This document shows, piece after piece, positions 2,734 through 51,414 of a DNA stretch of 64,000 nt. Both the position numbers and the translations under genes were made by a program. A model generated the notes under the pieces. The model had not been told where the DNA came from, ran no database searches, and worked only from the letters and a program-made list of their open reading frames with translations. The DNA lies in the NCBI GenBank assembly GCA_963727625.1, contig CAVSHR010000004.1:1152001-1216000 (forward strand). Reading direction: 5' to 3'. Source of the DNA: an uncultured delta proteobacterium (GTDB lineage: Bacteria; Desulfobacterota; Binatia; UBA9968). Each line of letters starts with the position of its first letter. Position 1 is the first letter of the stretch.

Positions 2734-3532
2734 CGTGCTACGTCCTCCTCTTCTATGACTCTGCTTCTATAATAATTCCGGGCTGCCAGCATCTAGACGC
2801 CGGCGGATACCCGACTGGCAATGACCCTCGACCCAATGGGGCCGACGAGGACATCTCGCGTCGGTAGGCCGATTCCTCCGTTGCCGAGACAACCAACTCA
2901 CTACGCCGACGAGATCTTAGATTTTCACCGTCAAGAAGTGTCAGGACGTTAGCACCGCAGCGAGAAGAGTGTCAAGATCTTTCTCGGGTGCAGCGATTCC
3001 GCGTCGGCAACTGAAAGTATTTGAAAAACTCTGCGCATGAGCATGTGCGAACATAGCTCTCAAGCTCTCCGGAATTTCTTTGCAAAGGTAAGACCTCAGG
3101 GCTGCAGGGCCAGCAGTCCCTGTCCCCCACAGAAGTGGAATGCTTCAACTACAAGCAAAAGAACCAGGTAAGCGTCCTGATCGTGCTCAAGCCGTGGCAC
3201 ACCAGCAATACGATGAGCGGCGAGATCCTGCCAGCCAAAAAAGGTTCTAGAAAAATCGCGACTGGCGGCGACATCGACGAATTGGGAAGAAAAAATATGG
3301 CCCATAAACGAATCAAAAAATGATCTGAAACAAAAACAAAGCAAATAGTAAATCGGGAGCTTGTCATACATCGGGTCTCGTTGTAGCATTCGGCAACCTT
3401 CAGCGGGCAAACTCAAAATGCGCTAATCTTTCCCGGAACGGTCCCCGTGCGCAAGGGGTCCGCCCGGTCGATAGTGCTTGATTTCTGTCACCGCATCGGG
3501 TTCCAGTCGGTATTGGTCAGGAGGATTCGGCG

Positions 3533-4492
3533 ATGCTCGTACGGTACGCCGCGTTGCGGCTCGTGCAATTGGTCCCTATGGTCCTGGTTGTCACGATGGT
3601 CGTCTTTTTCGTCATGATGATTGTCCCTGGGGACCCGGTCATGGTGATGCTGGGCGCGGTGGATGGGGCGCAGATTTCACAAGAAGTCTATGACGCGATG
3701 CGCGTGCGGTTGGGATTGGACCAACCCCTCATCGTCCAATATGCCCACTGGCTGTGGAATATGCTTCAGGGAGACTTGGGCAGCTCGATTACCTACCGGA
3801 CGGCAGCCCTGGACGTCATCCTTCACCGCCTGGTCCCAACCATGTACCTCATGGTTGGGGGCCTGGTAATGGCAGTTGTCATTGCCGTACCCGCAGGCGT
3901 GCTGGCAGCCATTCACAACAACACCAAATGGGACCACCTGGCCACAGGATTTGTGATCTTCGGCATCTCGGTGCCGACCTTTTGGCTGGCCCTGGTAGCG
4001 ATCCTGATTTTTGCGGTGTACCTTGGCTGGCTCCCCTCGATTGGGTATACGCCCCCACAAGTAGACTTCGTGGATTTTTTAAGACATATCACCTTACCAA
4101 TGACCGTGGTGGCCTTGAACATTGCCGCCACGGTTTTACGATTCCAGCGGCAGGACTTCCTTGAACAAATGCATCAGGATTACGTTCGGACCGCAAGGGC
4201 GAAGGGACTGAGCGAGAGGGTGGTCCTGTGGAAGCACGTGCTGGGCAACTCGCTCATAACGACGTTAACGGTGGTGGGCCTGCACATGGCCTACCTCAGC
4301 GGACTGATCACCATTGTTGAGACTGTTTTCAACTATCCCGGCATTGGCTATCTGCTGTTGAATTCCATAAACACCCGGGATTTCGTTGTCGTCCAAGATG
4401 TGGTCCTGTTCATGGTCTTTCTCGTCATCGTGGTCAACCTAGTCGTTGATATTCTCTACGCGGTGCTCGACCCTCGGGTCCGCTACCAATAA
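3533..4492 (+). CDS. Peptide/nickel-type ABC transporter permease (DppB-like)
   Basis: VPGDPV, LGLDQPLIVQY, DYVRTARAKGLSE (EAA loop), YAVLDPRV; RBS AGGAGG. Confidence 0.93.
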   Translation: MLVRYAALRLVQLVPMVLVVTMVVFFVMMIVPGDPVMVMLGAVDGAQISQEVYDAMRVRLGLDQPLIVQYAHWLWNMLQGDLGSSITYRTAALDVILHRLVPTMYLMVGGLVMAVVIAVPAGVLAAIHNNTKWDHLATGFVIFGISVPTFWLALVAILIFAVYLGWLPSIGYTPPQVDFVDFLRHITLPMTVVALNIAATVLRFQRQDFLEQMHQDYVRTARAKGLSERVVLWKHVLGNSLITTLTVVGLHMAYLSGLITIVETVFNYPGIGYLLLNSINTRDFVVVQDVVLFMVFLVIVVNLVVDILYAVLDPRVRYQ

Positions 4493-7463: not shown

Positions 7464-8651
7464 ATGGCACGTCATTACCGATACATTTCGGCCGATAGCC
7501 ACTTTGAGTCGCCGCCGGAGCAATGGACGCACCGGGTCCCCAAACGATATCGCGATCGCGCACCACGGCGGATCAAGCTTGCCAACGGTCACGATGGATT
7601 GTTGCTCGAAGGCTCTCGCCTGATCTATGGGGGAACCAGTCTCTATGGTGGACAAGCGCCCGAAACTTTCGATCCTACGATTATGGATTTCGACCGGACG
7701 CCAGGTTGTGGCTCGGCTGAGCAGCGTTTGCGCGAGCAAGACAAAGACGGGATCGACGCGGAGGTTCTTTTCGCGCTGGATGTGCGAAATTCGGCGATTC
7801 GCGATAAGTCCGCGCTTCTCGCGATCGTCAACGGCTTCAATCAGTACATGGCGGAGGAGTATTGTGCGGTGGATTGCGACCGGCTGATAGGTGTGGCCGT
7901 CTTGCCCAACGTCGGCGCCGAGCAAGATATCGCGGAGATGGAATCCTCCAAGCGAATGGGACTCAAGGCGGCGTGGCTTCGGACCTATCCAAGTGGGAAG
8001 AGTTATCCGACTCCGGAAGACGATCGCTTCTGGGCGGCGGCTCTGGATCTGGACATGCCCCTGGTTGTGCATACTTCGTTTCCGGCTCACGTTGGCTCGC
8101 GAGAAACTCCGCTATTCAAATATCCGCGGGAACCCGAGGGTGAACAGCAGCCACCGACGGACTTCGTGCAGCGGCTTGCGCGCCAGGGTCCGTTCCATAC
8201 CGGTTCCGTCGAAGCGAGTCAATTGGTCGTTGCCGGCGTTTTTGATCGGTTTCCGAAACTCCAAATTTACTGGGCGGAAAACAACGTGGGGTGGATTCCC
8301 TACTTTTACGAGCAGATGGACCATGAATATACCGTCAACCGATTTTGGGCAGAGCGCCACCTTGGCCTTCCCAAACTGAAGCGTCTGCCCAGCGAATATC
8401 TCCGGGAACACGCGTACTGGGGCTTTTTCGAAGACCATGTCGGCGTGCGACTGCGTCATGAAGTGGGCGTCGATCGCATGATGTGGTCTACGGATTTTCC
8501 GCATGTCGTGACCCGATGGCCTCAATCGCTCAAAATCCTGGAGTCGCAGATGCGGGAGGTGCCGGAAGACGAGCAGAAAAAAATGGTCGCCGGCAATGCC
8601 GTCAATTTTTTTCGCCTCGAACATAAACCGGACCCGGCCTGGCATAAATGA
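7464..8651 (+). CDS. Amidohydrolase_2 family protein (paralog 2)
   Basis: ISADSH, QDKDGIDAEVLF, AENNVGWIPY, MWSTDFPH; RBS GGAGGAG. Confidence 0.92.
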   Translation: MARHYRYISADSHFESPPEQWTHRVPKRYRDRAPRRIKLANGHDGLLLEGSRLIYGGTSLYGGQAPETFDPTIMDFDRTPGCGSAEQRLREQDKDGIDAEVLFALDVRNSAIRDKSALLAIVNGFNQYMAEEYCAVDCDRLIGVAVLPNVGAEQDIAEMESSKRMGLKAAWLRTYPSGKSYPTPEDDRFWAAALDLDMPLVVHTSFPAHVGSRETPLFKYPREPEGEQQPPTDFVQRLARQGPFHTGSVEASQLVVAGVFDRFPKLQIYWAENNVGWIPYFYEQMDHEYTVNRFWAERHLGLPKLKRLPSEYLREHAYWGFFEDHVGVRLRHEVGVDRMMWSTDFPHVVTRWPQSLKILESQMREVPEDEQKKMVAGNAVNFFRLEHKPDPAWHK

Positions 8652-8670
8652 CGCGCAGGCGAGTGCGCAG

Positions 8671-8879
8671 ATGAACCGCTTGAATGCCAGATTGCTTTTA
8701 CTTATTGGCGACGGCGCGCTGATGCTGATCGCAAGCGTGGACACCACCTCGGCACAGGGCGCGGCCGAACCAGACGTTCAGTACTTCAATGGTAAGACGA
8801 TGCGCGTGATCGTCAATTACGAACCGGAAGCTGCGCAGATCTGTTCGGAGGGTTGATCGCCACGCACCTCCCTAATGAC
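8671..8879 (+). pseudogene. Truncated, frameshifted N-terminus of a tripartite tricarboxylate transporter binding protein (TctC/Bug-like)
   Basis: Signal peptide then YFNGKTMRVIVNYEP, continuing in another frame as ADLFGGLIATHL, which matches the Bug-family start (GK.I..IV...PGG..D...R..A.HL); ends where the duplicated aldolase block begins. Confidence 0.6.
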
Positions 8880-40648: not shown

Positions 40649-41503
40649 TTACTCGCGCCGCTGCGATAACGCGCCGCTCGTGTGACCGCCGGTCGATCGA
40701 TCATCTGCCCTTTCGAGGGAGAAACTGCCATGATCCCAGAGCCTGCCGAAGATCAGGCAGGCAAGAGCGATGCTCAAGGGCCCGACCAACGCCGCCAGCC
40801 AATATCGGTTGAGCAGGCAGAAACCGAAGGGCAAGGCAAAATTCACCGAATAAACCCACGCCGCGAAACCCACGCTGCCGCGCGGCGCGGGCGCGAGTCG
40901 ATGCAACAACAGCAGGAGAACCAAGCCGGTCACTCCCCAGCCGAGTAAGTTCATCCACGGCATGCCATAATAGGCACCCTTGTCACCCCAGACCCAGTAG
41001 CTGGTAACCCGGCTCATCGCCGGATCGAGCAGCAGATCCCAGGCAACCAGCAACACGGTGCCCAGAAACACCGCGGCCAGACCGCGGGAAACCCGCCGCG
41101 CCAAGATCCAACAAGCCCAACTCATGGTAAACCAGCTGAGCGGGATCAACAGCGGCACGCGATCAAACCATTTGATGCCGAGCAGGGAAGTGTACGAATA
41201 GGCGCCGAAGGGAATGCCATAGGTCGTGCCCATGAGCTCGCTCGAAAGGCTGACAACGTAAACCACCAGAAAAGCCCAGAGTGCCTTTTGCTTGTCTCTG
41301 AGGAGCGCTTCACTGGTTGCCGCCAATCCGCCGAACAGCATATTGCCGACGGCAAAACCATGAAAGGCCCAGGCGAAAAACCGTGCTTGCGGATCGACCT
41401 GAATCAATAAATCCGGGCGCGAGGTAAATACGCCGTAGCCCAGCAAGCTGGCGATCACGATGGCTGCCTGGATCGCGAGAAACAACCAAGGCACGAAATT
41501 CAT
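40649..41503 (-). CDS. cruF: Carotenoid biosynthesis membrane protein, CruF (1,2-hydratase) family
   Basis: ELMGTTYGIPFGAYSYT..LG, VPLLIPLSWF, AWDLLLDPAM, YYGMPWMNLLGW; follows crtB. Confidence 0.8.
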   Translation of the reverse strand: MNFVPWLFLAIQAAIVIASLLGYGVFTSRPDLLIQVDPQARFFAWAFHGFAVGNMLFGGLAATSEALLRDKQKALWAFLVVYVVSLSSELMGTTYGIPFGAYSYTSLLGIKWFDRVPLLIPLSWFTMSWACWILARRVSRGLAAVFLGTVLLVAWDLLLDPAMSRVTSYWVWGDKGAYYGMPWMNLLGWGVTGLVLLLLLHRLAPAPRGSVGFAAWVYSVNFALPFGFCLLNRYWLAALVGPLSIALACLIFGRLWDHGSFSLERADDRSTGGHTSGALSQRRE

Positions 41504-41515
41504 GAATCTTCCTCC

Positions 41516-42472
41516 CTAACCGTTTATGTTGGAAGCCTTCCAGATCGCGCGCAACGGCGCGGGCGACCAGGGTTGGACAAGCCGCGCCGGCAGCGAGCGA
41601 ATCAAACCGAGAATGCCGACGAGCACGACGCGAAGCTTGCGCGCGCCGGTCACATAGGTGCGCTCGTCCCAAGCATGGGCGCCCTTGCGCAGCAGCAAGG
41701 CGCCGATCTCGGAGTAGACGTTGCGCGCTGCCGCCACCGCGCAGGCGGAGCGAAACGAAAGATGCCACAATCCCGCATCACCGGATCGGTAGTAGCGCTC
41801 GGCTTCGCGCAACAGGCGCTGGGTTAAGAGAGCCAATTTTTCTCGATTGGCGGGAGCGGCGATTTCATCCGGCTTGATCTCGGCCTCGTCGAGCCAGCTG
41901 AGCGGCAGATAAATCCGCCCCAGAGCGGCATCTTCGATGATGTCGCGGGCGATGTTGGTGAGCTGCATGGCAATACCGAGATCCGCTGCATGCTTGAGCG
42001 CGCGCTCGTCGCGGAGTCCCATCACATGGGCCATCATCAAGCCGACCGTACCGGCGACACGGTAGCAATAGAGCAACAGCTCTTTGAGCGTCGTGTAATG
42101 AGTGCCGCGCACATCCATCGCCATCCCTTCGATGAGCTCCAAAGCATAGTGGGAAGGAATACCGTAGCGATGGACTATATATTGTAGGGCGACGAAAACC
42201 GGCTGGCGCTGCGGCGTGAAGGAAAAAGCCGCGGCGGTGTTTTCTTTAAGCGCTTTGAGCCGCGTGGCAAGCTCAGCTGGGTCGGTGCCGTTGCCGACTT
42301 GATCCACCTGGTCATCGCAGTAGCGGCACCAGCCGTACAAAAAAAACGCCGCGTCACGGGTGTCCGGATCGAACAACCGCGCCGCCAACGAGAAGCTCTT
42401 CGAGCCCTTTTGAATCATCCAGCGGCATTCATCCAATGCCCCTCTGACCTGCTCCGGCATCGCTTCACGCAT
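41516..42472 (-). CDS. crtB: Phytoene synthase
   Basis: GSKSFSLAARLF, WCRYCDDQVD, YCYRVAGTVGLMM, LGIAMQLTNIARDIIEDA..GRIYLP. Confidence 0.95.
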   Translation of the reverse strand: MREAMPEQVRGALDECRWMIQKGSKSFSLAARLFDPDTRDAAFFLYGWCRYCDDQVDQVGNGTDPAELATRLKALKENTAAAFSFTPQRQPVFVALQYIVHRYGIPSHYALELIEGMAMDVRGTHYTTLKELLLYCYRVAGTVGLMMAHVMGLRDERALKHAADLGIAMQLTNIARDIIEDAALGRIYLPLSWLDEAEIKPDEIAAPANREKLALLTQRLLREAERYYRSGDAGLWHLSFRSACAVAAARNVYSEIGALLLRKGAHAWDERTYVTGARKLRVVLVGILGLIRSLPARLVQPWSPAPLRAIWKASNING

Positions 42473-43997
42473 AGGACAACCTCGCCGCGCCCGCGTTCTC
42501 CCGAGCCAGCGCCGCCTTGTAATCTTCGGTGATCACTCCGGCCGTCGCCTTAGCCGAGTTCACCACGCCCGGGATGCCGGCGCCGGGGTGCGTGCCCGCG
42601 CCGACGAAGTAAAGCCCGTTAATGTCTTTGTCACGGTTATGCACCCGGAAGTAAGCGCTCTGGGTCAAACGCGGCTCGAGCGAAAACGCCGAACCCAAAT
42701 GGGAATTGAGCTCGACTTTGAAATCCTCGGGAGTAAAGATTCTTTGCGTAACGATTTGGCCGCGCAGCTCCGGCATGTAGTTCCGCTCGAGATAGTCGAG
42801 AATGCGCTCGGCATAATCCGGCCCGGCGGTTTTCCAGTCGATATCGAGCTTGCCCAGGTGCGGCACCGGCGAAAGCACGTAGAATGCTTCGCAGCCGGGC
42901 GGCGCCAAGGACGGATCCGATCGGGTCGGCGCGTGCAGATAGAGTGAAAAATCGTCCGACAATCGGCCGCGGGCAAAGATATCCTTTAACAGCTCGCGGT
43001 AGCGCGGTCCGAAGATGATGTTGTGATGCAGCAGGTTCGGATAGCGCCGCCGCGTGCCGAAGTAGATCAGGAACAGCGACATGCTGTAGGCCGAGCGGGA
43101 CAGGCGCTTGCGCATGCGCTCGGCGCGCCGCTCGCGGCGTAACAGGGCGTCGTAGGTGTGGAACACGTCGGCGTTGCTCGCGACCAGGTCGAACTCCTCT
43201 CTCTGGCCGCTCTTGCTGATCACCGCCTGCACCTGACCGGCCTTGGTAACGATCTCGCCGATCTCCGCGTTCAGACGCAACTCGCCGCCTAGGTCGGTGA
43301 AGAGCTTGACCAGCGCTTGGACCAAAGCCGCAGTCCCGCCCTTCGGAAAAAACACACCCCACTTGCGCTCGAGGCAGTGAATCAGAGTGTAAATCGAGGT
43401 CGTGGTAAACGGATTGCCGCCCACCAGCAGGGAGTGAAAGCTGAAGAGCTGGCGCAAATGCGGGTCGCGAATATGCTTGGCGACCATGCTGTAGACGGAG
43501 CGATAGGCCTCCAACCGAACTAACTGCGGCGCCACCGCGACCATGCTCGCCCAGCTCAGAAACGGCACATGCGCGAGTTTTTCATAGCCCTCGCGGAAAA
43601 CCTCTTCCGAGTATTTGAGAAACTTTTTGTAGCCGGCCAGATCCTCCGGCGATTTTTTTGCGATCTGCGCTTCGAGCAGCGCCGCGTCATCGGAATAGTC
43701 GAATCGGTAGCCATCCTGCCAAAATAAACGATAGAAAGGATCCACCGCCAGCAACTCGACGTAATCGTCCATCGACTTGCCCGCCAAGGTGAACAGCTCT
43801 CGCAGACATTGCGGCGCGGTGATCACCGTCGGCCCGGCGTCGAAGCTAAAGCCGTTGTCGCGGTAGACATAGGCCCTGCCGCCGGCCAGATCGCGTTTCT
43901 CGAATATGACCGTGCGGAAGCCGGCGGCCTGCAGGCGAATGGCCAACGCCAGCCCGCCGAAACCGCTGCCGATCACCGCGGCGCGCAGCTTATCCAT
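42465..43997 (-). CDS. crtI: Phytoene desaturase (bacterial CrtI type)
   Basis: VIGSGFGGLALAIRLQAAG, FDAGPTVIT, FHSLLVGGNPF, LYFVGAGTHPGAGIPGV. Confidence 0.96.
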   Translation of the reverse strand: MDKLRAAVIGSGFGGLALAIRLQAAGFRTVIFEKRDLAGGRAYVYRDNGFSFDAGPTVITAPQCLRELFTLAGKSMDDYVELLAVDPFYRLFWQDGYRFDYSDDAALLEAQIAKKSPEDLAGYKKFLKYSEEVFREGYEKLAHVPFLSWASMVAVAPQLVRLEAYRSVYSMVAKHIRDPHLRQLFSFHSLLVGGNPFTTTSIYTLIHCLERKWGVFFPKGGTAALVQALVKLFTDLGGELRLNAEIGEIVTKAGQVQAVISKSGQREEFDLVASNADVFHTYDALLRRERRAERMRKRLSRSAYSMSLFLIYFGTRRRYPNLLHHNIIFGPRYRELLKDIFARGRLSDDFSLYLHAPTRSDPSLAPPGCEAFYVLSPVPHLGKLDIDWKTAGPDYAERILDYLERNYMPELRGQIVTQRIFTPEDFKVELNSHLGSAFSLEPRLTQSAYFRVHNRDKDINGLYFVGAGTHPGAGIPGVVNSAKATAGVITEDYKAALARENAGAARLSYA

Positions 43998-45117
43998 AGG
44001 CCAGCGCAATCTCTTCGCCCAAAGCTCGCAGTTCCTCGAAAGCGCGCTTGGACCAGGATACTCCGGTTTCATCGAGGCGAGCTTCGAGCAATTCGAACGC
44101 ATGGTCGAGACAGCTCTGAGCGCAATTGCGCGTCACAGGAACCAATTTATTCGCCCCGATCCACGATTCCAAATGCGCTGCGTCGGGCAGCTCGCTGACC
44201 GCGGCGAGGAATTCTTCGTAGTCACGCGCCGTGCTCTGATTTGCGGCGCAGGCCCAGACCCAGGAGGGCCGCGACAGGATCAAATCCTCATAGCGCTTGG
44301 AGGGCTCGCATTTACCGATCGTGTTGCCGAGATCATCGAACATTTGCAACGCGACGCCCAGATCCCGGCCGAAATCGTCGACGATTGAGATCAGCTTTTC
44401 CGAGCCGCCGGCGAGCACCGCGCCAAGCATGGCGGCAAACCCCATCAGCGCGCCGGTTTTAAGCCGCATCGAGGCGGTGCAAACTTCGGCCACCTCGCCA
44501 CGCGGCAGCCTGTGGACCTGAGCGCCCAAGTCGATCGCTTGGCCGAAATGGGCGCGCAACAAGGTGCGGTGGCAACGATCATAAATGAGCAGCATTTGAT
44601 CCTTTGCAACGCCCATCTCTTTAAGCAGTTCAAAGGGCCAGAAATAGAGCCAATTGCCGGCATTGAGAGCGATCGGCAGGCCATGGCGGACATGGAGCGC
44701 CGGACGCCCCCGGCGCATCGGACTGCCGTCTTCGATATCGTCGACGATGAGCGAGCCGGCATGGATGAATTCCACGGCTTCAGCGGCAATTCGACAGCGT
44801 TTCGCCGCGACTATGGAATGGGCCGCCTCGGAGTTAATCAAGCGGTAGCTGAAGCCCAGCAGTTGCCCGCGAATACGCTTGCCGCGGTTTGCGGTCAAGT
44901 CAACGATCGGATCCAACAACGCGCGACTCAACACACCGGACACCGCGCCCACATCATCGAGTCCCAGCAATTCAGCCAGCTGCGCGCCGTCGGGGAGGGT
45001 CCCGTCGGCAATTTCTTTGAGGCTGCCCGGGCGATCGTATTTCTCGGGACGCTCCTCGAAGCGCCGTCTAAACGGCGCCGGCGCCGACCGGCTCAGATCC
45101 AGAATTGAATTCTTCAT
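43990..45117 (-). CDS. crtE: Polyprenyl diphosphate synthase, probable GGPP synthase
   Basis: GKRIR, HAGSLIVDDIEDGSPMRRG, GQAIDL, KTGALM, LQMFDDL; overlaps the crtI start. Confidence 0.8.
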   Translation of the reverse strand: MKNSILDLSRSAPAPFRRRFEERPEKYDRPGSLKEIADGTLPDGAQLAELLGLDDVGAVSGVLSRALLDPIVDLTANRGKRIRGQLLGFSYRLINSEAAHSIVAAKRCRIAAEAVEFIHAGSLIVDDIEDGSPMRRGRPALHVRHGLPIALNAGNWLYFWPFELLKEMGVAKDQMLLIYDRCHRTLLRAHFGQAIDLGAQVHRLPRGEVAEVCTASMRLKTGALMGFAAMLGAVLAGGSEKLISIVDDFGRDLGVALQMFDDLGNTIGKCEPSKRYEDLILSRPSWVWACAANQSTARDYEEFLAAVSELPDAAHLESWIGANKLVPVTRNCAQSCLDHAFELLEARLDETGVSWSKRAFEELRALGEEIALAYG

Positions 45118-46088
45118 TCATTCCTCCCCAAAATTTGAAACGACTCGCTATCACCGGCCAAGAGATTTTCCGGAGTCACGCTCAAGGCGTTAGAAAGCCG
45201 GATGACGATATCCATGGATACGTTTTGCTTACCGCCTTCGACCGCGACGATACAGACTCGCGTCACGCGCGTCACTTTGGCTAGCTGCTCTTGGGTCCAA
45301 GCCTTCTTTAATCGCAAATCCCTCACCTGCCGCCCCAGCGCCAGCAGGTATTCTTTCAAGATCACCTTGGGACGGTTGGCACGCAAATTTTTAAGCGCCA
45401 AATCGATGCCGTCGTCGAGATCGCGCGCGATCTGGCAACGTCCGGTCAAAACGTTTCGCAAGGCATCGTTCGCAAGCGCCTGTCCGCCCAGGATGATGCG
45501 CGGCGCAGGCGCAAGGGCCACTGATTGTCCGATAAAATCGCGCGCGTGCTCGACGCCTTCGGGCAACGTCGCGGACAGCGCGACCAACTGCGGCCGGCGC
45601 TTCTGGGCTAGTTCGACGAGGGCTTCAGCGGGCACATCGGGACCGAGAAAGTCGGCGGTCCAGCCGCGGCTCCGACAGAGATCGGCAAACATCCGCGCGC
45701 CGATGTAGTGACGCTCGCCCTGAACGCAGGCAACCAGCACGCGATAGGACGAGCGCCGTTCGCGCCAAGCGAACATGGAGCTCAAACGATCCAGATGGCT
45801 CAGAACAATCTGAGTCGCCAAATGCTCCTCAGCGACACCGATATCGCCGCGACACCACAGGTTGCCAAGAGTAACCAGCGACGGCGCGATCACCTGACTG
45901 TAGATTTTGTCAAGCGAAAATCGCTGGGACAAAACATCATCGAGAACCCGGTGCGACGCTTCAGCGTCCCCCGCCATGAGCGCTGCGCTATATGCGCCGC
46001 GGCTTTGATCGAAGTGGTTACTATGATCGGCTTGGTTTTTTATCGGACGGTAATACGTCATCTTAATAAATCTTTGTATAGCGACCAT
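45114..46088 (-). CDS. Cobalamin-binding (CarH-type sensor) protein with C-terminal XRE/Cro HTH; putative light-responsive regulator
   Basis: WCRGDIGVAEEH = Wx9EH; GERHYIG = ExHxxG; FLGPDVP, VALSAT, IILGGQA Rossmann motifs; C-terminal LGRQVRDLRLKKAWTQEQLA...VEGGKQNVSMDIVIRLSNAL = HTH_3; start at 46088 inferred. Confidence 0.88.
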   Translation of the reverse strand: MVAIQRFIKMTYYRPIKNQADHSNHFDQSRGAYSAALMAGDAEASHRVLDDVLSQRFSLDKIYSQVIAPSLVTLGNLWCRGDIGVAEEHLATQIVLSHLDRLSSMFAWRERRSSYRVLVACVQGERHYIGARMFADLCRSRGWTADFLGPDVPAEALVELAQKRRPQLVALSATLPEGVEHARDFIGQSVALAPAPRIILGGQALANDALRNVLTGRCQIARDLDDGIDLALKNLRANRPKVILKEYLLALGRQVRDLRLKKAWTQEQLAKVTRVTRVCIVAVEGGKQNVSMDIVIRLSNALSVTPENLLAGDSESFQILGRNE

Positions 46089-46105: not shown

Positions 46106-47009
46106 TTACAGCCGCAGGGATCGCAACGCCGCCGCAATCGTAGGGTATTTGAAGCCATAGCCTAACTTCAACGCCGCTTCGGGCATTGCTTTCTGACCGG
46201 CTAATAACATATCGGCCATCTCGCCGGTGAGCAGCGTCAAGGCGGAAGGCGGCACGGACACCCACGACGGCCGGTTCAAAACAGCGCCCAGGGCCTTGGA
46301 AAATTCCGCCATGGTCACCGGATTGGGCGCGGTGCCGTTGAAAGCGCCCCGCGCGTTATCGTTTTCCATAAGAAACATCAGCAAGCCGATCTCGTCTTCA
46401 ATATGAATCCACGGCATCCACTGGTGGCCGAGCCCAGCGGCCCGCCCATAAACATCTTGAACGGCGGCACCATCTTTTTGAGCGCGCCCTGGCCGCGGTC
46501 GAGCACGATGCCGGTGCGCAACAGCACGACGCGAACCCCATGGGCTTCGGCCTTTTTCGCTTCGGATTCCCAGTCGATACAGAGCTGCGCCAAAAAATCA
46601 CTCCCGGGCGCGCTGTTCTCGGTAATCGCCTCGTCCCCATGCGGGCCGTAATAGCCCACCGCCGAGGCGCTCAGCAAAAGTTCGGCTTGTTTTTCGCCTT
46701 GGCCATGGCGTTGACCAGGGCGCGCGTCGATTCGATCCGGCTCGAGCGGATTAGCGTTTTCTGCGCCGCGCTCCAGCGCTTGCCGCCGATCGGTTCGCCG
46801 GCCAAATTGATCACACCGTCGGCGCTGTCAATCGCCTTTTCCCGTTCGCCGGTTGCACCGGGAGTCCACGCGAACCACTCCTTCTTGGTAACACCTAGTT
46901 CTGCCGGCGGTCGCCGGCTAAGCAGCGCCAGCGTGTGGAGTTGATTCCATAGCCGGTCAGCCAAAATCGAGCCGACAAACCCCGTAGCACCCGCGATAAC
47001 GACCTTCAT
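46106..47009 (-). pseudogene. TIGR01777 (YfcH-like) NAD-dependent epimerase family gene with two frameshifts
   Basis: GATGFVG, INLAGEPI, SRIEST | SASAVGYYG, LRTGIVL, GGPLGS | QWMPWIH, NGTAPNPVT lie in three frames; single-base losses near 46680 and 46428. Confidence 0.85.
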
Positions 47010-47052
47010 CGAGCTTGCCTGAAAATTTCCTTGTGCTCCTGAAATGACATTC

Positions 47053-47076
47053 TGAAGTCAAATATATTTGACTTCA
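47053..47076. promoter_or_regulatory. Perfect 24-bp palindrome in the divergent promoter of the carotenoid/light-stress cluster; candidate operator
   Basis: TGAAGTCAAATATATTTGACTTCA; contains TTGACT (-35-like) on both strands. Confidence 0.7.
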
Positions 47077-47109
47077 ATAGCACTAATGTCTTAATTAGTA
47101 AACATAGCG

Positions 47110-48069
47110 ATGGAACAAAATTTACTCCAACGCCCGCGCCTGGGCATCAGCGCTTGTTTGCTCGGGCAAACCGTGCGCTACGACGGGGGCCACAAGCATG
47201 ACGCGTTTTTGACCGATACCTTCGGCCGCTTCGTCGATTGGGTGCCGGTTTGTCCGGAGCTGGAAGTAGGCATGGGCGTGCCGCGCGAAAGCGTGCGGCT
47301 GATCGGTTCGTTGAATCAGCCGCGCATGATCGCCGAGCGTTCCGGCAAGGATTGGACCGACGCGATGACTGCCTTCGCCGCCAAACGGAGCGACTCTCTC
47401 GCCGCCCTCGATCTCTCCGGCTACGTGTTTAAAAAGGATTCGCCGAGCTGCGGCATGGAACGGGTCCGGGTGTACGAAGCAAAAACCCAGCCGACGCGCC
47501 GCGGCCGCGGTTTGTTTGCCGCCGCGTTGATGAAAAAGCTGCCGCTCCTTCCCGTCGAAGAAGAGGGGCGCTTGAACGATCCGGCGCTGCGCGAAAACTT
47601 CATCGAGCGGGTCTTCGCTTACCACCGTTGGCGCGCCGCAGAAGTCAAGAAGTCACGGGGCAGCCTGGTCGCCTTTCACACCCGGCATAAATATTTATTG
47701 CTGGCGCACAGCGAGCGTCACTATCGCAATCTCGGCCGAGTGGTCGCCGGCGCCAAGGAAAAGCCGCTGCGCGAAGTTTATGATGAATACGGCCTCGGCT
47801 TCATGGAAGGGCTGGCCGTCCAAGCCAGCGCCAAAAAACACGCCAACGTGCTCGACCACATGATGGGGTATTTTTCCAAGCAGCTCGACCCCGCCGAGCG
47901 CCAGGAGTTGGTCGAATTGATCGCCGACTACCGGCGCGAATTAGTTCCGCTCATCGTGCCGGTGACCCTGGTCCGCCACTACGTCAAGAAATACGCTGTG
48001 GCGTACCTCAACGACCAGGTTTATTTGGCGCCGAGCCCGAAGGAGCTGATGCTGCGCAATCACGTTTAG
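47110..48069 (+). CDS. DUF523 and DUF1722 domain protein (YbgA-like)
   Basis: GISACLLGQTVRYDGGHK, VCPELEVGMGVPRE, KKDSPSCG, PVEEEGRL, FHTRHKYLLLAHS, ELMLRNHV. Confidence 0.93.
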   Translation: MEQNLLQRPRLGISACLLGQTVRYDGGHKHDAFLTDTFGRFVDWVPVCPELEVGMGVPRESVRLIGSLNQPRMIAERSGKDWTDAMTAFAAKRSDSLAALDLSGYVFKKDSPSCGMERVRVYEAKTQPTRRGRGLFAAALMKKLPLLPVEEEGRLNDPALRENFIERVFAYHRWRAAEVKKSRGSLVAFHTRHKYLLLAHSERHYRNLGRVVAGAKEKPLREVYDEYGLGFMEGLAVQASAKKHANVLDHMMGYFSKQLDPAERQELVELIADYRRELVPLIVPVTLVRHYVKKYAVAYLNDQVYLAPSPKELMLRNHV

Positions 48070-48091: not shown

Positions 48092-48580
48092 ATGAAGACT
48101 TTTAATTTTGCCAGCGAAACTTGGTTACCTGCGCCGCGCCATCGAGTGTTTGAGTTTTTCGCCGACCCGGGCAACTTAGAACGGCTGACGCCGCCCTGGC
48201 TACACTTTGAGATCATCACGCCGCCGGACACCGCCATCACGCAAGGCAGCTTGCTCGACTACCGCCTGCGCCTGCGCGGCATCCCGCTGCGCTGGCAGAG
48301 TGAAATTTCCCTCTGGGAGCCGCCGCGCCGTTTCGTCGACCGGCAGACCAAAGGTCCCTACTCGCTCTGGGTGCACGAACACACCTTCGTCGACCATGAC
48401 GGCGGGACCATGGTCGGCGATCGCGTCGAATACGCCGTGCCCGGCGGCCGGCTCGTGCAAACATTTATTGTCGCTCCCGACCTCGAACGGATTTTTCAAT
48501 TCCGCCGCCGAGTCCTCGAAGAGATCTTCGCCGCCCGGGGGGCGCCTGCCCGCAGCATCGACCGGCGTTTAGTCCAGTGA
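48092..48580 (+). CDS. SRPBCC family ligand-binding protein
   Basis: VFEFFADPGNLERLTPPWL, WQSEI, FVDRQTKGPYSLWVHEHTF, DRVEY. Confidence 0.9.
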   Translation: MKTFNFASETWLPAPRHRVFEFFADPGNLERLTPPWLHFEIITPPDTAITQGSLLDYRLRLRGIPLRWQSEISLWEPPRRFVDRQTKGPYSLWVHEHTFVDHDGGTMVGDRVEYAVPGGRLVQTFIVAPDLERIFQFRRRVLEEIFAARGAPARSIDRRLVQ

Positions 48581-49966
48581 GCGGCCCTTTTCCAGCGCCG
48601 CGATGCGCTCGATGTAAGCCTTCGAATTGAACTTGCGCGAGGTGCTCTCGTAGGACATGTAGCGGATCTTGCCGTACACCGGCCGCTCCGGTCCCCAGGC
48701 GCGGTCATGCTTGCCGACGATCGCCCAGGCGATGCCGGCGTAGCCGTTGGGATCGCGGCCGTCGAGCTCGTAGCGGTCATTGAGCCAAACCGCGATCCGG
48801 TAGGCCGCCTGCGGCGACTCGGTCCATTCGAGAATTTTTTTCGCCCAGTACATGCGCAGGTAGCCGTGCATCCAGCCCGTCAGCACCATTTGCTTTTGTG
48901 CCGCGTTCCACAGCGGATCGTGGGTTTCAGCGTTTTCCAACTGCCGCTCCGTGTAAACACAGCGCCGACGATCCTGGGCGTGTTTGCGGTGGGTGAGTTC
49001 GGCCCAGGGCTCGCAGGCTTCGAAGTTCTCATAGTCGCGGTTGAAGCGCACGAAATTAATCGCCAGCTCCCGGCGCACGATCAGTTCCTCTAAGTAGGCT
49101 TTGCGGTCTTCCGCCGGCGCGCCAGCCTGTTGCACGGCAAGCGCCACGGTGTGCGCACCGATCTGGCCGAAGTGGAGATAAGCTGACAATTGGCTCGTGC
49201 CATCGATATCGGGTTGGTTGCGCAGCGTCGCATAGCCTTTGAGCCGGTGGCGCAGAAATCTTTCGAGGCAACACCGCGCTTCAGCGCTGCCGCCCGAGAA
49301 GTGTCGCGACGGCACGACCGAGCAGTCGATGGGAAATTCATCGAGCAGCGCCAAGTCCGAGGATAATGAAGCGACCTGCGCGGGCATGCGCCAGGCGAAC
49401 TTCGCCGCCGGGTTTCCTACCGGTTGCAAAAATTGCGGCAAGAGAGCTTGAATTTTCGGTCGGATCGTTCGCGCCGCGTAATGCTCTCTGGCAAGCAGCT
49501 TGGACGGCACGATCACGTCGGTGTCCACCGTCCAGAGCGGCAAATTGATTTGCTGCGCGATCTTGGCCTTGGTCAGCTCCGCCTGCTTCATCGGATTCTC
49601 GTCGCCGATCACCAAACAAGGCCGCACCTCGGAACAAAATCGCAAAAGCCCGTGTCGCGGATAACGGCGGAGAACCCATCCCACACCTCTTTTTTTTAGC
49701 TCCGCAGCAATGTCTCTCAGCCCTTCAACGAGAAATTGATAGTGCCGGAGATTCCCGTGATGAGAACGAGGAACGAGTTGAAAGAACACCACAACCGGCT
49801 TGCCCAGACGGTTGCCGGCTTCGACCGCGGCCGTGAGCGCGGCGTTATCCGCCGCTCTTTGAGCGCGCTGCATCCAGTAAACCACGCATCGCCCGTCGGG
49901 GTCCGGCGTGCCGGACCGCCGTACGGTCAGCCGTGGATCATCGCGCAAACAATCCAGGGCGGTCAT
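48569..49966 (-). CDS. phr: Class II CPD DNA photolyase
   Basis: VVYWMQRAQR..DN.AL, SQLSAYLHFGQI, GWMHGYLRMYWAKKILEW, LDGRDPNGY, HDRAW..ERPVYGKIRYM; ATGA overlap with the upstream gene. Confidence 0.95.
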   Translation of the reverse strand: MTALDCLRDDPRLTVRRSGTPDPDGRCVVYWMQRAQRAADNAALTAAVEAGNRLGKPVVVFFQLVPRSHHGNLRHYQFLVEGLRDIAAELKKRGVGWVLRRYPRHGLLRFCSEVRPCLVIGDENPMKQAELTKAKIAQQINLPLWTVDTDVIVPSKLLAREHYAARTIRPKIQALLPQFLQPVGNPAAKFAWRMPAQVASLSSDLALLDEFPIDCSVVPSRHFSGGSAEARCCLERFLRHRLKGYATLRNQPDIDGTSQLSAYLHFGQIGAHTVALAVQQAGAPAEDRKAYLEELIVRRELAINFVRFNRDYENFEACEPWAELTHRKHAQDRRRCVYTERQLENAETHDPLWNAAQKQMVLTGWMHGYLRMYWAKKILEWTESPQAAYRIAVWLNDRYELDGRDPNGYAGIAWAIVGKHDRAWGPERPVYGKIRYMSYESTSRKFNSKAYIERIAALEKGRSLD

Positions 49967-51414
49967 TGGGCCACGGCCCTCTCGTCGCGGCATCTCGCCG
50001 CGATCGCTTGCAACATTTTCGCGAACATCAACTTGTGGACCGGGTAAAGCAGGTACCAATACAATAAACCGGCGACGCCGATCGGATCGAAGATCGCGGT
50101 TTGGCGGATCACCGATCCGCTCCCTCGATCTTCCACTTCGAACTCGAGCCAAGCCCGCCCCGGCAGCTTCATTTCGGCGGCGAGACGAAGTCGTTGACCG
50201 TCCTGGAAAGCCTCAACCCGCCAGAAATCGAGGGTATCACCGACCTGAAGCATTTCCGGATCGCGCCGGCCCCGTCGAACCCCAACACCGCCCATCAAGA
50301 GATCGACAAAGCCCCGCACTTGCCACAACCAATCGCCGTAATACCAGCCGGTCTTCCCACCGATGCGGCGGATCGGCAGAAAGGCGCCTTTCGCAGAAAC
50401 ATTGACTGAGACTTCTCGATAATCAACGATCCGGTTGCCAAACCGCACCCCACCCCAATTGGACTGCTCTCCCCGCGACGATAAAGCATCGGACCACTTG
50501 GTGGCGGCAAATTCACGATCTTCATTGACGATGGCGCGGGCAATCATTTCCCGAACTCCTTTCGGCCGGACCGAAAATAGTTTGAGAGCATTAGGATCGC
50601 GCACCACCGTCGGGTTTCTGATGCTGTCAATTAACTTGCGGCCGACGCGCGCGTAGACCGGCGTTACCAATCCCAGCCAGAGACTCGATAGGCGCGGCGT
50701 CAACACCGGAACCGAGATCAGGAAACGGCGCAAATTGCGCTGCCGGGCATACTCGCGCATGATATGCTCGTAGGAAACCTGATCGGCGCCGCCAATCTCG
50801 AGGATGCGATTGCCTGTGAGAGGAAGATCCAAGGCTTGGACGAGGTATTCAACCAGGTCTTCAATCCCTATGGGTTGCGCCGCAATCGATACCCAAGCCG
50901 GGCAGATCATGACCGGCAGGCGCTCGACCAGCGCCCGAATAATCTCAAACGAAAGACTTCCCGAGCCGATGACGATCGAAGCGCGAAACTCGATGACCTC
51001 GAGGCCAAGCGTACGGAGCGCTTCGCCGACTTCCTGACGACTTCGCAAATGCGGCGACAACGCGCCCTCGCCTAAGCCACCAAGGTAAATGATGCGCCGA
51101 ATATTGGCCGCATGAGCCGCTTTTGCAAAATTGCTTGCGGCTTGACGATCTTTTTCCTCAAACGACCCGGCGGTGCCCATGGAGTGCACCAGATAATAAG
51201 CGGTGTGCACTCCCGCCGATGCGGCGGCGAGCGATGAGGTATCGAAACAGTCGCCAGAAACCACTTGGGTATTTTTGCCAATCCGTCCTCGCAGCGCTTC
51301 CGGTCGCCGTGCCATGCAGCGCAACCGATAGCCGCCCGCCTCCAAGGCTTGCAGCAACCTTCCGCCGACATATCCGGTGCCGCCGGTTAACAAGATGAGA
51401 TTCTGACGATCCAT
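49963..51414 (-). CDS. YbjT-like atypical SDR with C-terminal DUF2867 domain
   Basis: TGGTGYVGGRL, YYLVHSM, HLRSRQEV, IGSGSLSFE, IGGKTGWYY, DFWRVE, AEMKLPGRAWLEF. Confidence 0.92.
   Translation of the reverse strand: MDRQNLILLTGGTGYVGGRLLQALEAGGYRLRCMARRPEALRGRIGKNTQVVSGDCFDTSSLAAASAGVHTAYYLVHSMGTAGSFEEKDRQAASNFAKAAHAANIRRIIYLGGLGEGALSPHLRSRQEVGEALRTLGLEVIEFRASIVIGSGSLSFEIIRALVERLPVMICPAWVSIAAQPIGIEDLVEYLVQALDLPLTGNRILEIGGADQVSYEHIMREYARQRNLRRFLISVPVLTPRLSSLWLGLVTPVYARVGRKLIDSIRNPTVVRDPNALKLFSVRPKGVREMIARAIVNEDREFAATKWSDALSSRGEQSNWGGVRFGNRIVDYREVSVNVSAKGAFLPIRRIGGKTGWYYGDWLWQVRGFVDLLMGGVGVRRGRRDPEMLQVGDTLDFWRVEAFQDGQRLRLAAEMKLPGRAWLEFEVEDRGSGSVIRQTAIFDPIGVAGLLYWYLLYPVHKLMFAKMLQAIAARCRDERAVAQ

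What the first reader, a model, noticed from the sequence alone, without database searches (positions are those of the whole stretch)
45114..46088. CarH-type B12 photosensor with a rearranged architecture: C-terminal XRE/Cro HTH instead of N-terminal MerR
Seen: the protein has the adenosylcobalamin-photoreceptor signature Wx9EH (WCRGDIGVAEEH), the base-off His motif ExHxxG (ERHYIG) and a full Rossmann B12 domain, followed by a ~65-aa XRE HTH. There is no MerR domain. Its stop overlaps the crtE start (ATGA). Established: CarH/LitR of Thermus, Myxococcus and Bacillus put a MerR-type winged helix N-terminal to this sensor and repress crt and photolyase genes in the dark; AerR/PpaA have no DNA-binding domain. 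Inference: this is an independently assembled light-dependent regulator with a different DNA-binding output controlling the same kind of regulon. I cannot confirm from sequence alone that the architecture is undescribed.
Basis: partly seen in the sequence, partly recalled or inferred. Interest (0 to 1): 0.88.

Follow-up and report, generated by a model that had tools for sequence, protein, structure and literature searches.

The report
B12 light-sensor repressor with XRE domain
This gene most likely encodes a switch that uses vitamin B12 to sense light and turn on pigment and UV-protection genes. It has a different DNA-binding part from the known CarH switch, and the type is common in sequence databases but has never been tested.

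Summary
Window 45114-46061(-) encodes a protein of about 315 aa. It has a CarH-type cobalamin-binding module, a 39-residue helix and a C-terminal XRE helix-turn-helix, and no MerR domain. Both motifs that define CarH homologues are present, as are all four 'light-responsive' signature elements of Yu et al. 2024. Its stop overlaps the crtE start.

In 22 of 22 related loci the gene sits directly upstream of crtE, with crtI and crtB beyond it where the contig reaches. In 20 of 20 assessable loci it is divergent from rudS, a gene known from light-responsive operons. A 16-bp dyad lies in the divergent promoter region of all 21 loci and is the top genome-wide hit.

Best reading (about 0.55): an AdoCbl-loaded repressor that binds this dyad in the dark and is released by light.

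The architecture is not rare. There are 121 clusters at E<=1e-30, and similar clusters in Chloroflexota, Myxococcota and Bacillota. Annotation pipelines already label it, and a 2024 paper notes HTH outputs on either end of such domains. I found no functional study.

In this clade a Cys replaces the His that forms CarH's bis-His light state. Verdict: a new variant of a known kind, of moderate interest.

The parts
45114..46061 (-). Regulator gene, 315 aa: cobalamin-binding domain plus C-terminal XRE HTH. An alternative in-frame ATG lies at 46088.
   Evidence: ORF and translation. Pfam domains. Homologue N-termini.
45786..45992 (-). Four-helix-bundle subdomain (Pfam B12-binding_2, residues 33-101 counted from 46088). 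Contains GxxW (G75, W78) and E88-H89.
   Evidence: helices 13-106, pLDDT above 90; alignment to TtCarH.
45822..45857 (-). Wx9EH motif (W78...E88-H89). Cys79 (45852-45854) takes the place of TtCarH His132.
   Evidence: Cys follows the Trp in 115 of 116 close homologues.
45471..45743 (-). Rossmann B12-binding subdomain (residues 116-206). His127 (45708-45710), the predicted lower axial ligand, lies in ExHxxG. GxxxP is at G149-P153.
45303..45419 (-). Long connecting helix (residues 224-262) between the Rossmann fold and the HTH.
   Evidence: AlphaFold2 model.
45165..45341 (-). XRE/Cro-C1 type HTH (residues 250-308), nearly invariant within the clade.
   Evidence: Nearest solved HTH is C.AhdI, 1y7y, E 8e-6.
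47053..47076 (.). Perfect 24-bp palindrome. Its 16-bp core, 47057-47072 (GTCAAATATATTTGAC), is the predicted operator.
   Evidence: 1 match, 0 in 100 shuffles. De novo motif in 21 of 21 loci. Dyad statistics. Top genome-wide PWM hit.
47068..47095 (+). Proposed rudS promoter, read by eye: -35 TTGACT (47068-47073), 16-nt spacer, TG at 47087-47088, -10-like CTTAAT (47090-47095).
   Evidence: Both boxes conserved at fixed spacing in the 21 intergenic sequences. This is inference: the consensus scan did not list it.
47097..47104 (+). Second conserved box (AGTAAACA here, AGTCAACA in relatives), just upstream of the rudS ATG. It could be the transcription start region or an extra half-site.
   Evidence: Sequences printed. 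Role not tested.
47110..48069 (+). rudS: 2-thiouracil desulfurase plus DUF1722, a tRNA 4-thiouridine desulfidase. Divergent from the regulator operon.
   Evidence: Pfam. RudS paper PMC11417400, passages read.
48092..48580 (+). SRPBCC / polyketide-cyclase-like protein, downstream of rudS.
   Evidence: Conserved position.
46106..47009 (-). NAD-dependent epimerase plus DUF1731 gene, first gene of the leftward unit. In this window it reads in three frames (two frameshifts).
   Evidence: A single open frame in 9 relatives tested.
43990..45117 (-). crtE-like polyprenyl (GGPP) synthase. Its start overlaps the regulator's stop.
42465..44102 (-). crtI, phytoene desaturase-like.
41516..42472 (-). crtB, phytoene synthase.
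40649..41503 (-). Carotenoid biosynthesis protein (PF04240).
48569..51414 (-). DUF2867/NAD-binding gene (49963-51414) followed by a photolyase (48569-50152). They are nearby, but no operator-like site lies upstream of them.
   Evidence: no PWM hit above 14 bits in the window other than 47056-47073.

Best explanation
The gene encodes a one-component photoreceptor repressor.

Shown from sequence and model: it has a CarH-type cobalamin-binding module (four-helix bundle capping a Rossmann fold) with every residue class known to hold adenosylcobalamin. These are Trp78, Glu88 and His89 over the adenosyl group, and His127 as the lower axial ligand. It also has a long helix and a C-terminal XRE helix-turn-helix.

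Inferred mechanism:
- In the dark, AdoCbl-loaded protein oligomerises through its B12 domains, as CarH does.
- This places pairs of HTH domains on the 16-bp dyad GTCAAATATATTTGAC (47057-47072).
- The dyad overlaps the -35 box of the rudS-SRPBCC promoter. It lies about 55 nt upstream of the start codon of the epimerase-regulator-crtE-crtI-crtB unit. Both divergent units are repressed.
- Near-UV to green light cleaves the Co-C bond, the oligomer loosens, and the HTH domains leave the DNA.
- Carotenoid synthesis and tRNA s4U removal are then induced.
- The regulator sits inside the operon it controls, so it is also autoregulated.

Cys79 replaces the His that becomes the upper ligand in light-state TtCarH. 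The light state must therefore differ in detail from CarH.
For: Sensor.
- Pfam finds B12-binding_2, B12-binding and HTH_3.
- Wx9EH and ExHx2Gx41SxTx26GG are both present. A review states that the presence of both defines CarH homologues (PMC8156234, passages read).
- GxxW, EH, GxxH and GxxxP are all present (invariants; signature from PMC11796333, section 8).
- Residue-by-residue alignment to TtCarH.
- AF2 model with mean pLDDT 80.4. Foldseek top hits are photocobilin 8j2w, CtMerR 8jbs and TtCarH 5c8d/8c31, with target-normalised TM 0.8-0.84 for the CBD-only chains.
- The genome has a PduO-type adenosyltransferase.
- This is the only B12-binding_2 protein in the genome other than a 1240-aa frame, probably MetH.

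Regulon.
- The regulator lies directly upstream of crtE in 12 of 12 loci and 13 of 13 loci. Three loci appear in both sets, so this is 22 distinct relatives.
- rudS is divergent in 20 of the 20 loci whose contig reaches that far.
- RudS genes are reported in light-responsive operons with LitR and photolyase.

Operator.
- The window has a perfect 24-bp palindrome: 1 match against 0 in 100 shuffles.
- A Gibbs sampler with no prior placed the same 16-bp element in 21 of 21 intergenic regions.
- Symmetric columns G2/C17 and T3/A16 are complementary in 21 of 21 sites, T8/A11 and A9/T10 in 20 of 21, and A5/T14 in 17 of 21.
- The mean is 5.8 of 8 complementary pairs, against 2.1 for 2328 other 16-mers of the same regions.
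- In a PWM scan of the whole 6.6-Mb genome this site is the top hit at 27.8 bits. Only one other site reaches the training range of 21.6 bits or more.
- The HTH is almost invariant across the clade, which fits a conserved operator.
Against: - Nothing here is experimental. AdoCbl binding, photolysis, oligomer change and DNA binding are all inferred.
- The dyad's right arm is a -35-like TTGAC and its centre, TATAnT, resembles a -10 box. Part of the conservation may reflect promoter elements rather than a protein site.
- Symmetric pair 4/15 is complementary in only 6 of 21 sites and pair 7/12 in 4 of 21.
- The consensus promoter scan did not report my proposed rudS promoter. It reported only a weak CTGAAA-18-TATATT candidate.
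- I found no convincing leftward promoter for the crt unit.
- The site is fixed relative to rudS. In 4 of 21 loci it is 123-267 nt from the leftward gene's start.
- The His next to the Trp is a Cys. Yu et al. report that TtCarH H132A 'is unable to monomerise', and that CtMerR (Arg at that position) showed no monomerisation in anaerobically illuminated crystals. Light-driven release is therefore not guaranteed.
- No operator-like site precedes the photolyase/DUF2867 unit.
- The gene was not found in 10 of 24 genomes of the genus, some of them 98-100% complete.
- More distant family members are not next to crt genes (0 of 80).
Confidence: 0.55

Rival explanations
1. The protein and sensor are as described, but it is a transcriptional activator, or a dual regulator. 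It would bind the dyad centred about 38 nt upstream of the likely rudS start and recruit RNA polymerase in one light state. Some XRE-family proteins do this from sites overlapping the -35 box.
For: The dyad centre lies about 45 nt from the rudS ATG and overlaps the -35 region. That position is compatible with class II activation. No strong leftward promoter was found, which would fit an activator-dependent promoter.
Against: All characterised AdoCbl photoreceptor transcription factors repress in the dark (CarH/LitR). The rudS -35 and extended -10 boxes look self-sufficient. A site covering the -35 hexamer itself more often occludes it.
Confidence: 0.12
2. The protein senses cobalamin supply or redox state rather than light. 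B12 would act as a chemical co-repressor, or Cys79 as a redox switch, and the link to light-protection genes would be indirect.
For: B12-binding domains also serve non-photic roles. The invariant Cys beside the cofactor (115 of 116) could respond to oxidants. The bis-His residue of CarH is missing.
Against: Wx9EH caps the adenosyl group and is absent from MetH-type domains. It is conserved in 108 of 116 close homologues and 113 of 126 distant ones. The partner genes (crt, rudS, DUF2867 SDR, SRPBCC) are those of known light regulons. There are no B12 transport or biosynthesis genes beside it.
Confidence: 0.1
3. The conserved 16-bp element is only a pair of overlapping promoter boxes for the two divergent units. 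The regulator's true operator is elsewhere or is not conserved.
For: The right arm reads TTGAC and the centre TATAnT. The rc of the left arm is TTnAC-like. Position 4 of the left arm is not symmetric (6 of 21).
Against: G2 and T3 of the left arm are invariant (21 of 21) at exact mirror positions of A16 and C17. Neither position is part of a standard promoter hexamer for either direction. The spacing never varies. In the window and in L037 the dyad is perfect (8 of 8 pairs).
Confidence: 0.15
4. A B12-independent regulator like Myxococcus CarA, which keeps the fold but works through a partner protein.
For: The CarA precedent.
Against: CarA lacks Wx9EH, which is said to account for its B12 independence. 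Here both motifs are intact.
Confidence: 0.04

Closest known systems
CarH / class I LitR (Thermus thermophilus, Myxococcus xanthus, Bacillus megaterium, Streptomyces)
   Same: AdoCbl-type cobalamin-binding module with Wx9EH and the ExHxxG...SxT...GG motif. It sits next to, and probably represses, carotenoid genes. Predicted dark-state repression relieved by light.
   Different: The DNA-binding domain is an XRE HTH at the C-terminus behind a 39-residue helix, not an N-terminal MerR winged helix. The predicted operator is a 16-bp palindrome, not tandem 11-bp direct repeats. Cys replaces His132, so the bis-His light state cannot form.
CtMerR of Chloracidobacterium thermophilum (PDB 8jbs/8jbt; Yu et al. 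2024)
   Same: Best sequence match among solved structures (E 1.6e-19). It has the same four signature elements. It also lacks the His next to the Trp (Arg there).
   Different: CtMerR has an N-terminal MerR domain. This protein has a C-terminal XRE HTH.
Photocobilins (SasPcob 8j2w, AbDPcob 8j2y)
   Same: The B12 domain is equally similar (E about 5e-19; Foldseek rank 1). The extra domain is also C-terminal to the B12 domain.
   Different: Photocobilins carry a biliverdin-binding globin-like domain and control enzymes. Here the C-terminal part is an HTH.
AerR / PpaA and AppA SCHIC domains
   Same: Related B12-binding fold used in light or redox regulation.
   Different: As recalled, those have no DNA-binding domain and act through partners. 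The SCHIC hit here is below Pfam's cut-off (18.3 against 28.6 bits).
XRE-family controller and repressor proteins (C.AhdI 1y7y, P22 C2, DdrO)
   Same: The same HTH fold. Dimer-on-palindrome binding is the family norm (general knowledge).
   Different: None of them is fused to a cobalamin photoreceptor module.

Membership tests
CarH/LitR family (MerR-type AdoCbl photoreceptor repressors) | N-terminal MerR-type winged-helix DNA-binding domain | tested here: not met
   No MerR Pfam hit. The region N-terminal to the helix bundle is about 20 residues of low pLDDT.
CarH/LitR family (MerR-type AdoCbl photoreceptor repressors) | [quoted passage not shown] | tested here: met
   Residues 78-89, aligned to W131...E141-H142 of TtCarH.
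CarH/LitR family (MerR-type AdoCbl photoreceptor repressors) | Classic B12 motif ExHx2Gx41SxV/Tx22-27GG | tested here: met
   Residues 125-202, with spacing 41 and 26. Motif as quoted in PMC8156234.
CarH/LitR family (MerR-type AdoCbl photoreceptor repressors) | AdoCbl-dependent oligomer in the dark that dissociates in light | not testable with these tools
   No AdoCbl ligand is offered for folding. The homodimer job gave no verdict (see Tried and rejected).
CarH/LitR family (MerR-type AdoCbl photoreceptor repressors) | His next to the Trp, forming the bis-His light state (a TtCarH feature, not universal) | tested here: not met
   Cys79 at that position. Cys in 115 of 116 close homologues.
Light-responsive cobalamin-binding domains (SignatureFinder signature, Yu et al. 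2024) | GxxW, EH, GxxH and GxxxP elements | tested here: met
   G75-W78, E88-H89, G124-H127 and G149-P153. Invariant or nearly so in A1. Signature.
XRE / Cro-C1 HTH transcription factors (PF01381, PF13560) | Profile match above Pfam's gathering score | tested here: met
   HTH_31 38.5 bits (cut-off 27). HTH_3 33.1 bits (cut-off 23).
XRE / Cro-C1 HTH transcription factors (PF01381, PF13560) | Binding to a dyad-symmetric operator as a dimer | tested here: inconclusive
   A conserved dyad is present. Binding is not shown.
Photocobilins | Biliverdin-binding globin-like domain next to the B12 domain | tested here: not met
   The C-terminal region is one long helix plus a five-helix HTH.
AerR/PpaA-type antirepressors | B12 domain without a DNA-binding domain | tested here: not met
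   An HTH is present.

The most novel reading that the evidence does not exclude
The family is a second, independently built class of B12 photoreceptor transcription factor with a different DNA-reading geometry. A dark-state oligomer would present XRE HTH pairs to a palindrome, instead of MerR domains to direct repeats. In the Binatia-type clade the invariant Cys next to the capping Trp would become the upper cobalt ligand after photolysis, giving a thiolate-Co light state, or would couple light sensing to oxidation. Either would give a photocycle not seen in CarH, CtMerR or photocobilins, and a new compact optogenetic part.
Probability: 0.2. Interest if true: 0.75.

Novelty: new variant of a known kind. 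Interest (0 to 1): 0.55.

Why it matters
All B12 photoreceptor transcription factors studied so far use a MerR domain. A widespread family uses an XRE HTH on the other end of the sensor: 121 clusters at 50% identity with E<=1e-30, with similar clusters in at least four phyla. It would show how the same light-triggered oligomer switch can be wired to a different DNA-binding geometry.

It also gives a concrete, testable operator and regulon for light-induced pigmentation in the uncultured Binatia. The published genome survey of that group mentions no regulator.

The Cys-for-His change bears on an open question in the field: how the light state is stabilised when the bis-His ligand is absent. A small dimer-on-palindrome B12 switch could also be useful for optogenetics.

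Tried and rejected
- Homodimer prediction of the full-length protein with alignment A1: 'no answer', score 0.04 against a mark of 0.42. This says nothing either way.
- Sequencing runs: no RNA holder listed, so there is no expression evidence. Contigs of four DNA runs were laid. One contig of X2 covers 46629-46941 with no difference from the window. The second frameshift region was not covered.
- The search for related loci with the diverse alignment A2 failed for lack of a conserved stretch. It was repeated with the narrower A3.
- Literature. Five searches combined CarH, B12, cobalamin or adenosylcobalamin with XRE, HTH_3, Xre-type or XRE family. None returned a study of this architecture. The only relevant statement is in Yu et al. 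2024. Its Fig. 9 and Fig. S9 and its supplements could not be seen and may show this very architecture. Subscription-only reviews of B12 photoreceptors were not searchable.
- The Binatota genome paper mentions no CarH, regulator, cobalamin or photolyase. A sponge diel-transcriptome paper gives nothing on Binatota crt genes.
- Consensus promoter scan: it did not find my proposed rudS promoter.
- A second PWM site (23.1 bits) lies at the start codon of an MscS-like gene on another contig. I did not test whether it is conserved and do not count it in the regulon.
- Photocobilin and AerR readings were rejected on domain content.
The sites were then derived from stored files by a sampler.
Full report
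**Observation**

The minus strand carries an ORF that ends at 45114. Homologues start at the equivalent of the next ATG, 46061, which gives 315 aa. Residue numbers below count from 46088.

Pfam finds B12-binding_2 (33-101), B12-binding (116-206) and HTH_31/HTH_3 (250-308), and no MerR domain. A regex finds Wx9EH at 78-89 and the complete classic motif ExHx2Gx41SxTx26GG at 125-202. A review by the CarH discoverers states that the presence of both motifs defines CarH homologues, and that CarA, which lacks Wx9EH, is B12-independent (PMC8156234, passages read).

HMMER alignment to TtCarH maps W78, E88-H89 and H127 onto W131, E141-H142 and H177. It maps Cys79 onto His132. The four-element signature that Yu et al. 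2024 validated for light-responsive domains is GxxW, EH, GxxH and GxxxP (PMC11796333, sections 8, 11 and 12 read). It is fully present, and invariant or nearly so in 22 aligned clade members.

The regulator's TGA overlaps the ATG of a crtE-like gene, as ATGA.

**Structure**

An AlphaFold2 model built on the 22-row alignment has mean pLDDT 80.4. It shows a helical bundle (13-106), a Rossmann fold (116-220), one long helix (224-262) and a five-helix HTH (266-311).

The Foldseek rows shown for the PDB search are all B12 photoreceptor domains: photocobilins, CtMerR and TtCarH/LitR. The target-normalised TM-score is about 0.8 for the domain-only chains. By sequence the nearest solved chains are CtMerR (1.6e-19), photocobilin (4.5e-19) and TtCarH (about 1e-17). 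The HTH is nearest to the controller protein C.AhdI (8e-6).

**Context in relatives**

The window lies in a 6.6-Mb, 15-contig genome. In that genome this is the only B12-binding_2 protein besides a 1240-aa frame, probably methionine synthase. A PduO-type adenosyltransferase is present and a CobA type was not found. AdoCbl can therefore plausibly be made from cobalamin.

Full-length relatives occur in 14 of 24 sampled genomes of the genus. Only weak partial matches (E no better than 1.6e-7, each covering one domain) turned up in 16 genomes of two other families of the order. None occurred at E<=1e-30 in 300 other genomes drawn from the phylum. Thirteen species-representative MAGs, mostly titled Candidatus Binatia or 'delta proteobacterium', hold it.

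Across the 22 distinct related loci (12, 13, with three shared) the gene is always followed by crtE. Where the contig reaches, crtI and crtB follow, and often a PF04240 carotenoid gene, a second polyprenyl synthase and DXS. Upstream there is usually an epimerase/DUF1731 gene.

In all 20 loci whose contig extends far enough, a divergent rudS gene follows, then an SRPBCC gene. A photolyase and a DUF2867 SDR are often nearby. RudS is a tRNA 4-thiouridine desulfidase, reported to sit in light-responsive operons with LitR and photolyase (PMC11417400, passages read).

**Operator**

The 100-bp divergent region 47010-47109 contains a perfect 24-bp palindrome at 47053-47076. It matches once in the window and never in 100 shuffles.

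I extracted the corresponding region from the window and 20 relatives. A Gibbs sampler given no prior placed one 22-mer at the same element in all 21. Its core is a 16-bp dyad, consensus GTNAANTATANTTGAC.

| Mirror columns | Complementary sites (of 21) |
|---|---|
| 2/17 | 21 |
| 3/16 | 21 |
| 8/11 | 20 |
| 9/10 | 20 |
| 5/14 | 17 |
| 6/13 | 12 |
| 4/15 | 6 |
| 7/12 | 4 |

The mean is 5.8 of 8 complementary pairs, against 2.1 for 2328 other 16-mers from the same regions. The centre lies about 45 nt from the rudS start. In most loci it lies 51-56 nt from the start of the leftward gene, and in four loci 123-267 nt.

A PWM scan of the whole genome puts this site first, at 27.8 bits. One further site reaches the training range. 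It scores 23.1 bits and sits at the start codon of an MscS-like gene on another contig. Everything else is below 20 bits. No site precedes the DUF2867-photolyase unit.

**Promoter reading (inference)**

The right arm is a -35-like TTGAC. It is followed, at a conserved 16-nt spacing, by a TG-extended -10-like box, and then by a conserved AGT(C/A)AACA box just before the rudS ATG. A repressor on the dyad would therefore occlude the rudS promoter.

The tool's consensus scan did not list this promoter. It found only a weak alternative. I could not identify a convincing leftward promoter. The dyad's centre also resembles a -10 box on both strands. Part of the conservation may therefore be promoter signal. 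The invariant outer G-T/A-C pairs at exact mirror positions are what argue for a protein-binding dyad.

**Mechanism**

The best-supported model is a CarH-like switch with a different output.

- Dark-state AdoCbl-loaded protein oligomerises through its B12 domains.
- XRE HTH pairs then sit on the dyad and repress rudS-SRPBCC. Probably they also repress the epimerase-regulator-crtEIB unit, which would include the regulator itself.
- Light cleaves the Co-C bond and releases the repressor.

The shown steps are the domain content, the motifs, the fold, the synteny and the conserved dyad. The inferred steps are cofactor binding, photolysis, oligomer change, DNA binding and the sign of regulation.

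One real uncertainty is Cys79. In TtCarH the His at this place becomes the upper ligand in the light state. The H132A variant is reported as unable to monomerise, and CtMerR, with Arg there, did not monomerise in anaerobically lit crystals. In this clade Cys follows the Trp in 115 of 116 full-length homologues. In more distant family members the residue varies: His in 45, Glu in 18, Ala in 12 and Cys in 6 of the 117 with a Trp-anchored match, out of 126 full-length proteins.

**How widespread and how new**

A word-indexed search found 409 homologues. The 120 best all carry the same four Pfam domains. They are named by JGI 'methanogenic corrinoid protein MtbC1/DNA-binding XRE family transcriptional regulator' or, wrongly, 'MerR family ... 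light-induced transcriptional regulator'.

An exhaustive HMMER search of 1.84 billion cluster representatives found 121 at E<=1e-30. Of the 149 listed proteins other than P0021, 126 are 280 aa or longer, and 113 of those 126 keep Wx9EH. Twenty-four picked across the range, plus the window's protein, all have B12-binding_2, B12-binding and HTH_3 (25 of 25). One cluster is labelled SAR202/Chloroflexota. Atlas clusters with this Pfam set are commonest in Binatota, Chloroflexota, Myxococcota and Bacillota.

For 80 more distant metagenomic loci, out of at least 352 found, the neighbours detected with the window's proteins were as follows.

| Neighbour | Loci (of 80) |
|---|---|
| DUF2867 SDR | 21 |
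| RudS | 16 |
| SRPBCC | 12 |
| Epimerase | 8-10 |
| Photolyase | 2 |
| crt genes | 0 |

A Pfam tally of 96 immediate neighbour ORFs gave the same leaders: Epimerase 12, RudS domains 11, DUF2867 11. Unrelated families followed, such as DAHP synthase 7 and Methyltransf_9 6. The family as a whole is thus tied to light-protection genes, while the crt link is specific to the Binatia-type clade.

**Literature**

Five full-text searches combined the B12 photoreceptor terms with XRE, HTH_3, Xre-type or XRE family. They found no study of this architecture.

Yu et al. [quoted passage not shown] Their figure and supplements, which I could not see, may depict this family. The photocobilin paper says more complex putative B12 photoreceptors 'lack functional characterisation'. 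[quoted passage not shown] The Binatota genome paper discusses carotenoids but no regulator.

**Verdict**

This is a new, uncharacterised variant of a known kind of system. It is not a unique rearrangement. Its value lies in a concrete operator and regulon prediction, a different DNA-binding geometry, and the Cys-for-His substitution.

Noticed in passing
window 46106-47009 (-): The epimerase/DUF1731 gene upstream of the regulator reads in three different frames, with switches near 46674-46704 and 46321-46435. It is one open frame of about 301 aa in the 9 relatives tested. One contig of run X2 covers 46629-46941 and agrees with the window without a gap. The first shift may therefore be real rather than an assembly error. 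The second was not covered.
   Followed up: partly
G000 contig C11:18287-18304 (L052 4288-4305): This is the only other genome site scoring in the operator's training range (23.1 bits). It sits on the start codon of a 472-aa MscS-like channel gene. Conservation in relatives was not checked.
   Followed up: partly
L059, L061, L064, L065, L071, L074 (metagenome loci), about 45-60 nt upstream of the regulator start: A marine clade has the gene order DUF2867 SDR, regulator, rudS, epimerase, SRPBCC. Upstream of the regulator it carries a different AT-rich dyad, with arms of 6-7 bases and 3-5 bases between them. This may be that clade's operator.
   Followed up: partly
window 47097-47104 and the same place in 20 related loci: A conserved AGT(C/A)AACA box lies between the -10-like element and the rudS ATG, leaving a very short or absent leader. 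It resembles one arm of the dyad and could be an auxiliary half-site or the transcription start region.
   Followed up: no
window 48569-50152 and 49963-51414 (-): As listed, the photolyase ORF overlaps the DUF2867 ORF by about 190 nt. The true photolyase start is probably a downstream codon. Several relatives show these and other genes in pieces, which suggests indel errors in some assemblies.
   Followed up: no
L027 (G004:C6), 2247-3717 and 7872-8687: One relative has two copies of the rudS-SRPBCC pair near the cluster. The copy beside the regulator is truncated.
   Followed up: no
L034 record title: Public MAG titles for this clade disagree: Chloroflexota, Eisenbacteria, Syntrophobacteraceae, Thermodesulfobacteriota, Binatia. 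Yet genome search places several of them in one genus. Taxon labels on these records are unreliable.
   Followed up: no
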